This document shows, piece after piece, positions 4,305-55,220 of a DNA stretch of 64,000 nucleotides. Under the pieces are notes generated by a model. The model worked only from the letters and a program-made list of their open reading frames with translations, was not told the DNA's origin and searched no databases. The stretch is from Eledone cirrhosa. Lineage: Eukaryota. How positions within the stretch are numbered: the first letter of the stretch is position 1; each line of letters opens with the position of its first letter. The stretch is taken from NCBI GenBank assembly GCA_964016885.1, contig OZ024749.1, positions 43,028,001-43,092,000 on the forward strand. Reading direction: 5' to 3'. The translations under genes and the position numbers were made by a program.

Positions 4305-4415
4305 TAACGAAGGAAATGTGGTAAGGAACCAGGTGGACCATAACGCACCAAAGTACTCAATACTTGGGGTAGTAGAGTGGGTAATAGGAACCAGTAAGAC
4401 CTCTTACTGGTTCCT
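4305..4415 (-). mobile_element. Family A hairpin-plus-tail element, very short inverted arm
   Basis: Tail TAACGAAGGAAATGTGGTAAGGAACC...GAGTGGGTAAT, then AGGAACCAGTAAGACC|TCTTACTGGTTCCT. Embedded in (TA)n. Confidence 0.85.
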
Positions 4416-4692
4416 ATATATATATATATATATATAGATATATGTATATATGGGAGGGGGTGGGTATACATGCAAATGCTGTATGTAAATTTGAATACAA
4501 TTGTGTATTAGAGTTTTGTAAAAGTTTGTTGAATGAATATATATGTGTAATTTGTATTAAATTATATACTTCCAAATATGGCCCCCACACATACATAAAT
4601 ACACAACCACTCTCCCTGTCTCCCTCTTTTATTCTGCCTTTCTGAATCACTCTCAGTATCTTTCTATAGCAAATTATATCCTCTCTCTCTCT

Positions 4693-6625
4693 CTATATAT
4701 ATATATATATATAAATATATATGTATATATATATATATATGTATACATATATATATACATATATATATACATATATATATACATATATATATACATATAT
4801 ATATATACATATATATATACATATATATATACATATATATATACATATATATATATACATATATATATACATATATATATACATATATATATATACATAT
4901 ATATATACATATATATATACATATATATATATACATATATATATACATATATATATACATATATATATACACATATATATATACATATATATATACAGTA
5001 TATATATACAGTATATATATATATATATATATATATATATATACATATATATATACAGTATATATATACAGTATATATATATATATATACATATATATAT
5101 ACAGTATATATATACAGTATATATATATATATATATATATATACATATATATATACATATACATATATATATATATATATATACATATATATATATACAG
5201 TATATATATACAGTATATATATATACAGTATATATATACAGTATATATATACAGTATATATATACAGTATATATATATATATATATATATATATATATAT
5301 ATATATACATATATATATACATATATATATACATATATATATATATATATATATATATATACATATATATATATATATATATATATATACATATATATAT
5401 ATATACATATATATATATATATATATATATATACATATATATATATATATATATATATACATATATACATATATATATATATATATATATATATATATAT
5501 ATATATATATATATATATACCGCCGGAAGCTTCTATATATGTCATGAAATATTCAGAGGAAATCAATCTTGTGAAATATAAAATGATCACTCTATCTATC
5601 TCTCTCTCTCTCTATATATATATATATATATATACACACACACACACACACCCACATATATATACACACACACACACACACCCACATATATATACACACA
5701 CACACACACACCCACATATATATACACACACACACACACACCCACATATATATACACACACACACACATATATATATATATACACACACACACACACACA
5801 CACACACATATATATATATATATACACACACATATATATATATATATATATACACACACACACACACACCCACATATATATACACACACACACACACACA
5901 CACATATATATACACACACACACACACACACACATATATATATATATATATACACACACACACACACATATATATATATATATACACGCACACACACACA
6001 ATATATATATATATATATATATATATATACACATATATATATATATATATATACATATATATATATATATATATATATATATATATACACACACATACAC
6101 ACATATATATACACACACACATATATATATACACACACACACACATATATATATACACACACACACACACATATATATATACACACACACACACACATAT
6201 ATATATACACACACACACACACACACATATATATATATACACACACACACACACATATATATATACACACACACACACACATATATATATACACACACAC
6301 ACACACATATATATATACACACACACACACATATATATATACACACACACACACACACACACACATATACACACACACACACACACACACACACACACAC
6401 ATATATACACACACACACACACACATATACACACACACACACACACACACACATATATACACACACACACACACACACACACACATATATATATATATAT
6501 ATACACACACACACATATATATATATATATATATACACACACACACACACACATATATTAATATATATATATACACACACACACTCATATATATATATAT
6601 ATATATATATACACACACACACAGA
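4693..6625. repeat. Compound (TA)n/(CA)n microsatellite field
   Basis: Direct reading. Interrupted only by a ~70-bp unique insert at 5520-5590. Confidence 0.97.
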
Positions 6626-7410
6626 CATACACAATATAATCAGATGTTGACATGGCGAACCAAACTCTGTTCATCTGTTCATTTATTACAGTAGTAGGCC
6701 TTTTACGTCTATTTCTTTATACTTAAGTATATAAGCTGTCACAGGAAATACTGTATGGCGTTAAATATTTACAGACAGCCGCAAAGTTTCGAATCAGGAT
6801 CAGTAAGTGAGGTTTATAAATTCCGATAGATGTCATCACAGTCGGGGAGCAAGATGGAAGTTTCCTCCCGTGTTAAGATGCTATTGCAGCGGAAGCTTCT
6901 ATATACCCCTTGCAACATTTAAAGGAAATGTATCTTTGTATCTTCTGCAATATAAAATCTTATGTTATATATGAATATATATGAATATATATATATATAT
7001 ATATATATATATATATATATATATACATAATTATATATATATATATATATATATATATATATACACATGCATAATTATATATATATATATATATATATAT
7101 ATACACATGCATAATTATATATATATATATATATATATATATATATATATATATATACACATGCATAATTATATATATATATATATACACATGCATAATT
7201 ATATATATATATATATATATATATATATATATAATTATGCATCTGTATATATGTATATAATCATGTATGTATAAACATCCAACCAGCCACACACACATAT
7301 ATATATGTGTAAATGTGAGTGTGTGTGTTTATACATATGTATGTGGATAGATAGTCATGCATATTTATTCATATACATGCTTATATTATATATTCTTGTA
7401 TAATATATAT

Positions 7411-7585
7411 TTGTTTCTACTTTAGGCACAAGGCCAGCAATTACCCAGTTCATTACTGGTACTTTATTTTATCGACCCCGTAAGGATGAAAGGCAAAGTC
7501 AACCTCGGCGGGATTTGAACTCAGATCGTAAAGGGACGTAACTATGCTGGAAAGCATGGCGTCCGACCCTCTACCGATACTACCA
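7411..7585 (-). mobile_element. SINE S1
   Basis: Reverse complement of the consensus, including B-box GGATTTGAACTC. Confidence 0.9.
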
Positions 7586-52371: not shown

Positions 52372-52617
52372 AAAAAATAGCGTAGGACAGAACAAAGGAG
52401 AGGCACAAAAACAAAGAAAAGAATCCCCAGTCACTGAAGAGGTCACAGAATGTGTGACTAAAGAACTTTGACAATATATAAACAACTATCTGGTTGTGGA
52501 ACCAACCAACCAGAAATTTATAAATTCCTAAATTTATAAATTTATTATAATAAATTGAAGTGAAATCAATTGGTGCGTGTGTTTCTTATTGGCAACATGA
52601 CCCTCCCAAAGTATAAC
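52372..52617 (+). mobile_element. Family E element with a degenerate hammerhead (52430-52472)
   Basis: GTCA-CTGAAGA-GGTCACA..TGTGAC-TAAA-GAAC-TT-TGAC. The 3' end runs into (TA)n. Confidence 0.65.
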
Positions 52618-52980
52618 AATATATATATATATATATATATAGGTGTTCACAAATACAGAGACACACGTACTTACATATACACATGCACAACACACAACCA
52701 CACTGAGATACACACATCTCTCTATATAGATATAGATGTACGTATTCACAAACACACACTCATACAAACACACACTCATACAAATACACACTCATACAAA
52801 CACACACGCATACAAACACACACTCATACGAATAAATATAGACATTCAAAAGCAACACACATTTACACATACACAGGTACAGACATTACCGCATGCACAC
52901 ACAGATTGAAGGAGACAAACATACAGACACATACACATACATGCGATCACACATTTACACACACATATCTAGATCTATAT

Positions 52981-53411
52981 AAGGCTATATACAAACAGGG
53001 CAAGCCTATATATATGTATACATATATATATATATATATATATATATATATATATAAAGCTATATACAAACAGTATAACCCCTATATATATATATATATA
53101 TATATATATATATATATATATATACATATATATAAACTATATACAAACAGTAAAACCCCTATATATATATATATATATATATATATAAAGCTATATATAA
53201 ACAGTAACACTCCTATATAATATATATATATATATAAGGCTATATACAAACAGTAAAACCCATATATATATATATATATATATATATATATATATACACA
53301 TATATATATATAAGGCTATATACAAACAGTACAACGCCTATATATATATATATATATATATATATATATATATATATATATATATCCGGCTACATACAAA
53401 CAGTACAGCCC
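52981..53411. repeat. Composite minisatellite: ~7 x AAGGCTATATACAAACAGTAAAACCC with (TA)n spacers
   Basis: Seven diverged units were counted. Confidence 0.9.
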
Positions 53412-55005
53412 ATATAAGCTATAAGCTATAAGCCATAAGCCAATAAACATACAATCAGACAGCACAAAGATATCACACATCAAAGGACAGACAACGACTG
53501 AATATCATGAATGGACAACAGCGCATGAGCGAAGGAGCTGTCCTGACCCCCATCCTCTAGGTTATCAAGCTATTGTCTGATTATTGTTCTACATTTATTT
53601 TATGTTACTGGCTGTCCCCTTATAGACCTTCATTCTACTCGACATTATTCAAGGAAACAGTAACTCATCGAAGGAAAGGCAGCGAGGAATTTCTAGCGAT
53701 TGATCTATCGATTGCAAAGTGGGTTTATACTGATATATACAGACACACACACACACACACACAGACACAGAAATACAGGAATACGTACGCGTGTATATAC
53801 ACACACACACACACGTATGATTGTTAAAATATTCTTATACACGGCGATAGAAGAACACATATGCACACACATATATATGCCCATATATATATATATAATA
53901 TATATATATAATATATATATATATATATATATATATATTATACACACACACATATATATATATATATATGCATATATATATTATACACACACATATATAT
54001 ATATATATATATATATATGCACATATATATATATATATATATATGCACATATATATATATATATATATATGCACATATACATATATATATATATATGCAC
54101 ATATACAAACATATAAAACAAAAATATATATATATATAATATAATATATCTATATAAAATATAATATCTATATACGTATATATATAATATATATATGTAT
54201 GTAAATGTGCATATATATATATATATGCACAGTTACATACATATATATATATTATATATATATGTATATATAGATATATTATATTATATATAGATATATT
54301 ATATTATATTATACATATATATATATAACTTATATATATATATATATATATATATATATATATATATTATATTCATGTGTACATGTTTATATATTTACAT
54401 ATAAATCTCCACATTTACATATATGTACGTAAGTACGTGTGGGTATACAATATTTGATCAATTTCTTCAGAATACAGTAGGCTCCAACATCTCTTGTAAA
54501 TACTATATATAGTGTTACGTTCACTTTAAAATAGATTTGTCTATGTAGAAGAATGTTATTTTTAGGTAACAGTAACATCACTTTGATTTATTAGACATCT
54601 AGCCTCGCTGTTTAGCGATGCAAGAATTAATGTATCGTGACCCAGACTTATTTGTAAAGCTTTATCCATTGAATTCTGCCTTCATGAGTCTATTATAGAA
54701 AGAAGACGGTAGGGTTGCCATAATATCCGTGATTTTCTTTTAGTCTATTATTTCATTATATGATATTAGATGTTTGCTTGCAACGTCATGCTGCGGAGTA
54801 AAGTTCCAGGAGAAAGAATAGTGAAACAGGTTTGTCGTTCACAGCAGGAAAGGAATATTCTCTCTGTTGTCTCATTAAATATATATCTAAAAATAATACT
54901 AAATAGATTTCCATAGCTTCTTTGCCTTATCTATTACTGCCCCAAATCCGAGAATTGTTGTAGTTACGAAAAATCCTTATATATATATATATATATATAT
55001 ATATA

Positions 55006-55220
55006 TAACAAAGGAATTGTCGTAAGGAACCAGATGGACCATAACGCACCAGAGTACTCAATACTTAGGGTAGTAGAGTGGGAAATAGGAAAAGGTATGA
55101 TCCCGACGGCAGAGCTTAAGCCGTTTCGACGGCTATTTCTGGACTGTTCGACGGCGATTTCAGTCCAGAAATAGCCGTCGAAACGGCTTGAGCTCTGCCG
55201 TCGGGCTCATACCTGTTCCT
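55006..55220 (-). mobile_element. Family A element, longest copy
   Basis: Tail plus hairpin with an extra internal segment TTCGACGGCGATTTCAGTCCAGAAATAGCCGTCGAA. Confidence 0.9.

What the first reader, a model, noticed from the sequence alone, without database searches (positions are those of the whole stretch)
4305..55220. Family A: ten young hairpin-plus-tail elements in 64 kb with copy-specific fold-back points
Seen: copies lie at 4305, 9555, 25531, 28479, 28690, 29628, 41219, 41721, 43513 and 55006. The ~78-bp tail is constant. The inverted arm starts at (AT)AGGAA in nearly all copies, matching the internal ...TTCCTAT. Hairpins range from ~14-bp arms (4305) to ~60-bp arms (9555), and 28690 has no overlap at all. 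In 9555 both arms carry the same private substitution, and subfamily variants (GGCAGAG vs GGCTGAG) appear in both arms. Inference: the palindrome is rebuilt at each insertion from one template rather than inherited. No copy extends 5' past a GC-rich stem (GACGGC...GCCGTC) that precedes GAAA, which may be stem II of a hammerhead whose 5' core is lost.
Basis: partly seen in the sequence, partly recalled or inferred. Interest (0 to 1): 0.75.

Follow-up and report, generated by a model that had tools for sequence, protein, structure and literature searches.

The report
Cap-marked twin stubs of Penelope element
The ten hairpins are very short insertions of a protein-coding Penelope-like jumping gene with over 33,000 copies in this genome; each likely formed when both ends of a cut in TA repeats copied the first 60 and 140 letters of its RNA and ran off the capped start, which likely lies inside the element's hammerhead ribozyme.

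Summary
All ten copies are real. They are not a free mini-element: longer copies elsewhere run on into an intact 719-aa RT + C-terminal GIY-YIG ORF with Hydra-clade motifs. An inverted arm with a one-sided tail in (TA)n is the known Penelope-like (PLE) insertion layout.

The missing hammerhead half exists in long copies (U3-A8 core, TTGANAA; 5,033 exact hits against 53,415 for the 3' half). Arms cluster by locus (distance 1.2 vs 4.5, n=65, p=1e-4), but the 'private' 9555 change is the commonest subfamily allele.

Snap-back is disfavoured: the tail-less arm often holds sequence that its partner lacks, and some partners come from other PLE families. 198 of 215 arms lack the ribozyme's 5' half; most stop within about 8 nt of a TATA/Inr-like site in loop II. 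Arms ending there carry an extra G (87 G vs 13 A in 100 rows; G on both arms at 396 loci, A at 11), a likely cap footprint. No RNA data were found.

The scan noted similar readings before for other families of this genome. Verdict: known class, with testable in-genome evidence on how PLE inverted ends form.

The parts
4305..4417 (-). Family A stub; tail-bearing arm reaches +44, inverted arm +46 (+1 = A of the (T/C)AGTCC site in the parent)
9555..9753 (-). Family A stub, both arms end at +2, blunt join (perfect 120-bp palindrome)
9555..9633 (-). Tail (template +62 to about +140), the stretch between the two inferred reverse-transcription start sites
   Evidence: reading from PMC11167929
9605..9628 (-). 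Bulged hairpin (4 bp, 2-nt bulge, 4 bp) just 3' of the tail-less start site; a twin lies just 3' of the tail end in the parent
9634..9693 (-). Direct arm: 3' half of the hammerhead (3' strand of stem II, GAAA, stem III with palindromic loop, GUC cleavage triplet ending near 9654, 3' strand of stem I)
9694..9753 (+). Tail-less inverted arm
25531..25695 (-). Family A stub; inverted arm reaches -4; tail-bearing arm has a short piece from around +1, then skips to the tail
28477..28658 (+). Family A stub, arms to +11 (tail side) and +9
28688..28829 (+). Family A stub; inverted arm to -1, tail side holds the tail only (3-nt microhomology): inverted arm has about 57 nt absent from its partner
29628..29792 (-). 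Family A stub, both arms to +17 (4-nt microhomology); arms differ in the variable stem-I bulge
41217..41401 (+). Older-subfamily stub, arms to +19 (tail side) and +5
41721..41919 (+). Family A stub, arms to about +7 (tail side) and +2
43513..43706 (-). Family A stub, arms to +2 (tail side) and +7
55006..55222 (-). Family A stub, both arms reach +1, with a 16-nt filler copied from the arms
12744..12761 (+). Short relic resembling the arm core (17 of 18 nt)

Best explanation
Family A copies are the short end pieces of an autonomous Hydra-clade Penelope-like retrotransposon, each likely made when both ends of a cut in (TA)n primed copying of the element's RNA at two sites about 78 nt apart and both copies likely ran off a capped RNA start that is inferred to lie inside loop II of the hammerhead. 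Shown: parent ORF, clade motifs, hammerhead fold, arm end points, extra G, one-tail rule, arm concordance, cross-family partners. Inferred steps: (1) Pol II starts at +1 (a cluster from about -4 to +1) behind a TATA-like box at -29, so the RNA's 5' end holds only half a ribozyme and only the downstream pLTR copy could fold a whole one and cut after +41. (2) An RT-endonuclease dimer binds two similar bulged hairpins (+67 to +90 and from about +143), nicks both strands of (TA)n, and primes one DNA end at about +60 and the other at about +140 of mostly the same RNA. (3) About nine in ten copies run off at +1, copy the cap as an extra base, and the two cDNA ends are trimmed and joined by end joining (microhomology, blunt or filler), giving a copy-specific palindrome. 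(4) About one in ten arms continues past +1, likely by a jump to the RNA's 3' repeat (+1 to +41) or on a read-through or circular template, giving long and full-length copies.
For: Parent: intact copy in L121 (pLTR end, tail, ORF 1079-3238, 3' UTR, tail-less pLTR end, (TA)n), with an inverted tail-bearing arm upstream in L077. Hydra motifs R-R-W, DKT, YRDDG, CxCx5C, CxxC, CxH are present and 95-100% conserved at the key residues in 58 homologues (definition). Hammerhead: three-way junction in the minimum-energy fold of 3 of 4 long copies folded; 93.9% of cells paired in 21 copies; N7 takes all four bases. End points: of 215 arms, 17 carry the 5' half, 52 end at -8 to -1, 121 at +1 to +7, 25 at +8 to +17, none in between; genome-wide 53,415 vs 5,033 exact 22-mers. 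Extra G: 87 G vs 13 A before AGTCC in the first 100 of 4,724 rows (counted by eye; about 33 G vs 9 A not explained by the partner arm); 13 G vs 4 A in 17 scripted +1 ends; control at +2: G in only 16 of the first 100 rows (by eye) and 8 of 35; both arms with G at 396 loci (control 3) vs both with A at 11 (control 7). Uncoded G as a cap mark: PMC6280765. Two primings: inverted arm reaches >20 nt further than the tail arm in 15 of 108, the reverse in 3 (p=0.008); partners from other PLE families in L087, L072, L034, L031, L047; one tail in 108 insertions, two tails in 1. In vitro, a PLE protein cuts and extends both strands and starts at two sites that bound the tail (PMC11167929).
Against: No RNA was observed: the start site, cap and cleavage are inferred from DNA alone. 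Many extra G can be explained by the partner arm or by CAG/CTG fillers copied from the arms (about 54 of 87 rows; most of the first 50 loci); C and T at -1 cannot be told from template. 52 of 215 arms appear to end 1-8 nt upstream of +1, some by chance matches. The site also resembles a splice acceptor. Two of the 15 'inverted longer' cases are doubtful (internal deletion, palindromic overlap), and later deletions can mimic the rest. Arm concordance could also come from subfamilies active at different times or from conversion between arms. Hammerhead covariation is weak (2 pairs change on both sides; 22 of 500 shuffles reach that), fold z-scores are -0.3 to -2.7, and Rfam finds nothing. The second hairpin was seen in only 2 read-through copies. 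Pfam gave no hit for the ORF; no tree against published Hydra proteins was built.
Confidence: 0.7

Rival explanations
1. Snap-back or self-priming: one cDNA is made, its end folds back and copies itself as far as the TAT at about +60, which joins the (TA)n target. This is the first reader's fold-back; PMC3846280 proposed self-priming on an antisense template.
For: Explains arm concordance and the one-tail rule; 39 of 91 junctions show microhomology; proposed in print.
Against: Cannot give inverted arms with sequence that the direct arm lacks (15 of 108 vs 3), loop-less palindromes with both arms ending at +2 (9555; 6 such pairs in the 100 rows), joins with an extra G on both arms, or partners from other PLE families.
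Confidence: 0.12
2. Two primings, but the cliff at +1 is an RT stall, splice junction or RNA cut in a longer read-through or circular RNA, not a capped start.
For: The site reads like a 3' splice acceptor; in Drosophila Penelope an intron end maps at the hammerhead (PMC4209133); ends are spread over about 15 nt.
Against: No shared upstream exon among fillers; the cliff lies in a loop, not at the foot of a helix; G excess is specific to +1; TATA-like box at -29 and Inr-like site.
Confidence: 0.13
3. The stubs amplify on their own as a non-autonomous, SINE- or MITE-like family transcribed from stub loci or moved as a fixed palindrome.
For: Stubs outnumber long arms about ten to one.
Against: Junctions differ copy by copy; stubs lack the upstream TATA-like box and the second hairpin; the same subfamily alleles occur in long and short copies.
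Confidence: 0.05

Closest known systems
Hydra-clade Penelope-like elements (Craig et al. 2021, PMC8557442), incl. Hydra-1_Obim
   Same: Single RT + C-terminal GIY-YIG ORF, DKT, CxCx5C linker, CxxC/CxH, (TA)n target, hammerhead in the pLTR, inverted 5'-truncated copy, tail on one end
   Different: Different family: the listed Hydra-1_Obim hammerhead has a C3-G8 core and unrelated stems; here U3-A8, a loop II of about 33 nt, a 78-nt tail rather than 30-40, and a unit of about 3.1 kb rather than <3 kb
Poseidon_Ac in vitro system (Frangieh et al. 2024, PMC11167929)
   Same: Both strands cut and extended; two internal RT start sites that bound the tail; AT-rich target; predicted dimer
   Different: In the parts read it does not explain inverted arms, a run-off point or a cap footprint; other clade
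Minimal type I hammerheads of PLE pLTRs, U3-A8 variant of Schistosoma Cercyon (Cervera and de la Pena 2014, PMC4209133)
   Same: U3-A8 core, long stem II, palindromic loop III, pairs on opposite strands
   Different: Here stem III has 4-6 bp, and about nine in ten genomic arms hold only the 3' half
LTR-retrotransposon minus-strand strong-stop DNA and first strand transfer (recalled, no call)
   Same: Works like it: priming near the RNA 5' end, a short run-off cDNA, and a terminal repeat that could take the jump
   Different: Primer is nicked target DNA on both sides, not tRNA; products are integrated as inverted stubs; the jump is not shown here
Non-LTR retrozymes (bioRxiv 10.64898/2026.07.22.740005)
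   Same: PLE-derived, type I hammerhead
   Different: Retrozymes are head-to-tail arrays with whole ribozymes; family A stubs are inverted pairs with half ribozymes

Membership tests
EN+ Penelope-like element | Single ORF with RT and GIY-YIG endonuclease | tested here: met
   719-aa ORF, YRDDG and VIY...YIG motifs; 2,054 relatives at E<=1e-20, one with PF01541; Pfam scan of the ORF itself empty
EN+ Penelope-like element | pLTRs from partial tandem, inverted 5'-truncated copy, tail on one end | tested here: met
   L077/L121 layout; 108 one-tail vs 1 two-tail insertions
EN+ Penelope-like element | Type I hammerhead in the pLTR | tested here: met
   Core, three stems and GUC site in long copies; covariation weak
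EN+ Penelope-like element | Hammerhead self-cleaves | not testable with these tools
   508 arms start right after the GUC vs 81 at an imperfect control position: suggestive only
Hydra clade | DKT, RWK-type motif, CxCx5C linker, CxxC and CxH flanking E and N | tested here: met
   DKT 117-119; RLRWR 35-39 (K in 71% of homologues); C572-C574-C580; C670xxC673; C698xH700
Hydra clade | (TA)n insertion preference | tested here: met
   10 of 10 window copies; nearly all sampled tails followed by (TA)n
Hydra clade | Placement in the RT phylogeny with published Hydra proteins | not tested
   Reference proteins were not on hand as tool sequences
Naiad clade | N-terminal endonuclease, no canonical hammerhead | tested here: not met
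   Endonuclease is C-terminal
Non-LTR retrozyme | Head-to-tail repeats, each with a whole hammerhead | tested here: not met
   Inverted pairs; 198 of 215 arms lack the 5' half
MITE / fixed-palindrome DNA element | Fixed terminal inverted repeats and fixed centre | tested here: not met
   One-sided tail, variable junctions

The most novel reading that the evidence does not exclude
This PLE replicates like an LTR element in disguise: its promoter starts inside the hammerhead so that only the 3' copy cuts, leaving an RNA with a 41-nt terminal repeat; a dimer on twin hairpins primes both DNA ends near the cap, makes two strong-stop cDNAs, and only a jump to the 3' repeat yields pLTR-bearing long copies. 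The tens of thousands of hairpin stubs are failed jumps, stamped with the cap.
Probability: 0.4. Interest if true: 0.78.

Novelty: new variant of a known kind. Interest (0 to 1): 0.55.

Why it matters
How Penelope-like elements, the sister group of telomerase, make their pseudo-LTRs, inverted ends and tails is stated as open in PMC8557442 and PMC11167929. This family offers tens of thousands of natural reaction products with base-level end points and an intact young ORF. They point to specific claims (start site at +1, two start hairpins, one RNA for both ends, 3'-only ribozyme cut) that CAGE and the existing in vitro PLE assay can test directly. In practice such stubs are easy to misfile as MITEs or SINEs.

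Tried and rejected
Canonical core: CTGANGA within 30 nt of the GAAA gave 36 hits, junction fillers or chimeras with other families. Rfam: nothing in the window or on the long hammerhead region. Pfam: no hit on the ORF. No ORF piece of the parent in the window. RNA: no RNA holder listed. Contigs of three coded runs were laid: depth in X1 falls about 15-fold across +1, but the tool says depth is no copy number and X1 may be the assembly's source, so it is not used as evidence. The repeat finder was swamped by microsatellites. One search had an offset bug (its printed junctions are valid, its end points are not; redone); searches stopped with errors. A stand-alone 140-nt SINE-like template was my first idea and was dropped when long copies appeared. 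Splicing at +2/+3 was considered; no shared upstream exon was seen. The control was mis-specified at one position, includes point mutants and omits one subfamily, so the +42 peak is not relied on; a stall at stem III or G-run microhomology could also give it.
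Full report
OBSERVATION. All ten copies lie where stated, between (TA)n runs. In the sense used here each reads: inverted tail-less arm, junction, direct arm, 78-nt tail. An exact tail 32-mer has 33,439 hits in the 3.0-Gb genome G000, control 0. In the window and 400 kb of neighbours 21 of 41 tails match exactly, so roughly 65,000 copies is my extrapolation; the window is several-fold denser than average. 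The genome looks like an octopus (inference from size, repeats and earlier notes; no call names it).

PARENT. Loci were picked by the exact tail (80 stretches on C1, one of them taken for the parent only), by the arm (20) or as neighbours (40). Some tails continue upstream into a shared 3' UTR and a GIY-YIG ORF. L121 holds an intact unit: pLTR end, tail, 5' UTR, 719-aa ORF, about 0.8 kb to a tail-less pLTR end, (TA)n; upstream (L077) lie a partial tandem copy and an inverted, tail-bearing arm of about 850 nt. The ORF has the motifs by which PMC8557442 defines the Hydra clade, conserved in 58 of the 120 listed homologues that I aligned. The published octopus Hydra family has another hammerhead, so this is a different family.

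RIBOZYME. A canonical CTGANGA is absent (36 chance or chimeric hits). Long copies have CCCC-TTGANAA-G about 50 nt upstream of the GAAA: 5,033 exact hits, N7 free. Stems I-III fold around this core in 3 of 4 copies folded; 93.9% of cells pair in 21 of the 30 loci aligned (the rest were near duplicates or cut short), with weak covariation. The U3-A8 core is in print for Schistosoma Cercyon. The tail-less start lies at the foot of stem I.

WHERE ARMS END. I set +1 at the A of (T/C)AGTCC in loop II (L121:848); a TATA-like box starts at -29. Of 215 arms that hold +13 to +32, 17 carry the 5' half and run on for about 100 to 3,000 nt, 52 end at -8 to -1, 121 at +1 to +7, 25 at +8 to +17, and none between. 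Genome-wide the 3' half outnumbers the 5' half 53,415 to 5,033 (the patterns cover subfamilies unequally). Of the first 100 rows that reach +1, about 35 are long; among the rest the base at -1 is G 14, A 2, C 20, T about 29, where C and T may be template (by eye). With purines only, G 87 and A 13 (by eye), about 33 vs 9 after removing rows that the partner arm explains. At +2 G is the rarest base (16 of 100 rows; 8 of 35). Both arms end in +1 plus G at 396 loci, plus A at 11; 15 of 15 fetched loci are family A, but most fillers are CAG/CTG, which could be copied from the arms. An uncoded G marks capped 5' ends in RT-based libraries (PMC6280765). I infer a capped start at +1. A TATA/Inr pair in a pLTR was noted for a rotifer PLE and an internal promoter for Drosophila Penelope.

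HOW THE TWO ARMS RELATE. In 65 two-armed copies of the unselected sets the arms differ by 1.17 on average against 4.46 across loci (direct-direct 4.57, inverted-inverted 4.34); 29 of 65 are identical against 9% expected; permutation p=1e-4. So arms cluster by locus. The 9555 allele is a subfamily mark. A few copies mix subfamilies (L079, L022, L189, window 29628). Junctions: 39 microhomology, 34 filler, 18 blunt of 91. The inverted arm reaches >20 nt further than the tail arm in 15 of 108, the reverse in 3 (two of the 15 are doubtful). One tail in 108 insertions, two tails in 1, no tail in 2 (the last class is under-sampled by design); free choice of start site would give about a third with two tails. 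Of 162 tail arms, 45 had no family A partner by the script; 8 are long, many are missed partners or join (TA)n directly, and at least two (L087, L072) have an inverted partner from another PLE family, one (L141) another PLE upstream in the same direction; L031, L034, L047 are further chimeras among loci selected by pattern. With the in vitro finding of two start sites and extension of both strands, this favours two primings, mostly on one RNA.

TWIN HAIRPINS. In 212 tails the five positions with over 5% departure (63, 78, 79, 86, 94) all fall outside its 16 stem positions.

LONG COPIES. Long arms with and without tail are about equally common (6 and 5). A tail-bearing long arm needs RNA with the second hairpin downstream and pLTR upstream: a jump from the 5' end to the 3' repeat, a multi-unit read-through, or a circle as proposed in PMC4209133. 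These are not separated here. Arms that start just after the GUC (508 vs 81 at a flawed control) hint at cleavage in vivo only.

LITERATURE SEEN. PMC8557442: passages, section 11, a supplement search and part 2 of 59. PMC11167929 and PMC4209133: parts 1-2 of 4 (plus passages of the first). PMC3846280, PMC2377424, PMC6280765, PMC13282606: passages. bioRxiv 10.64898/2026.07.22.740005: part 1 of 5. Searches listed no paper joining PLEs with strong-stop DNA, strand transfer, twin priming or a cap footprint; most subscription papers are not in the library. The LTR strong-stop comparison is recalled.

VERDICT. Class and layout are known. The start site inside the ribozyme, the cap footprint and the one-RNA twin priming are inferred, agree with earlier unchecked notes of this scan on other families, and are directly testable. 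Interest 0.55.

Noticed in passing
window 3743 and 20468: Another (TA)n-flanked family with a canonical CTGATGA...GAAA core; a related end is the inverted partner of family A tails in L031 and L047
   Followed up: partly
window about 3950-4300 and 41454-41623: A further palindromic family with a hammerhead-like core; the first copy abuts the 4305 stub across a short (TA)n
   Followed up: no
window 15645-15819, 25290-25420, 44083-44245, 50427-50710: A third hairpin family with CTGATGA/CTGAAGA cores, some as inverted pairs
   Followed up: no
window 43046-43134, 15550-15663, 50197-50410, 62799-63018, 43847: Further palindromes or lone hammerhead-like cores
   Followed up: no
window 2450, 7400, 8570, 13750, 33258, 36474, 38317, 47160, 62925: A dispersed repeat of about 190 nt, SINE-like (label recalled), with a 209-nt tandem at 33250-33851
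   Followed up: no
window 63181-63693: 16-bp unit repeated 32 times at 95%
   Followed up: no
window 29707-29726: Variable stem-I bulge of the 29628 direct arm resembles the complement of the 5' strand of stem I rather than the partner arm
   Followed up: no
L135:5382, L160:5401, L179:5610: Rare insertions with a tail on both arms (L135) or on neither (L160, L179)
   Followed up: partly
L121:6695-9767: A LINE with AP endonuclease and RT in broken frames just downstream of the intact PLE
   Followed up: no
L071, L073, L147, L180: Long copies with internal inversions of ORF or UTR pieces next to the arm
   Followed up: no
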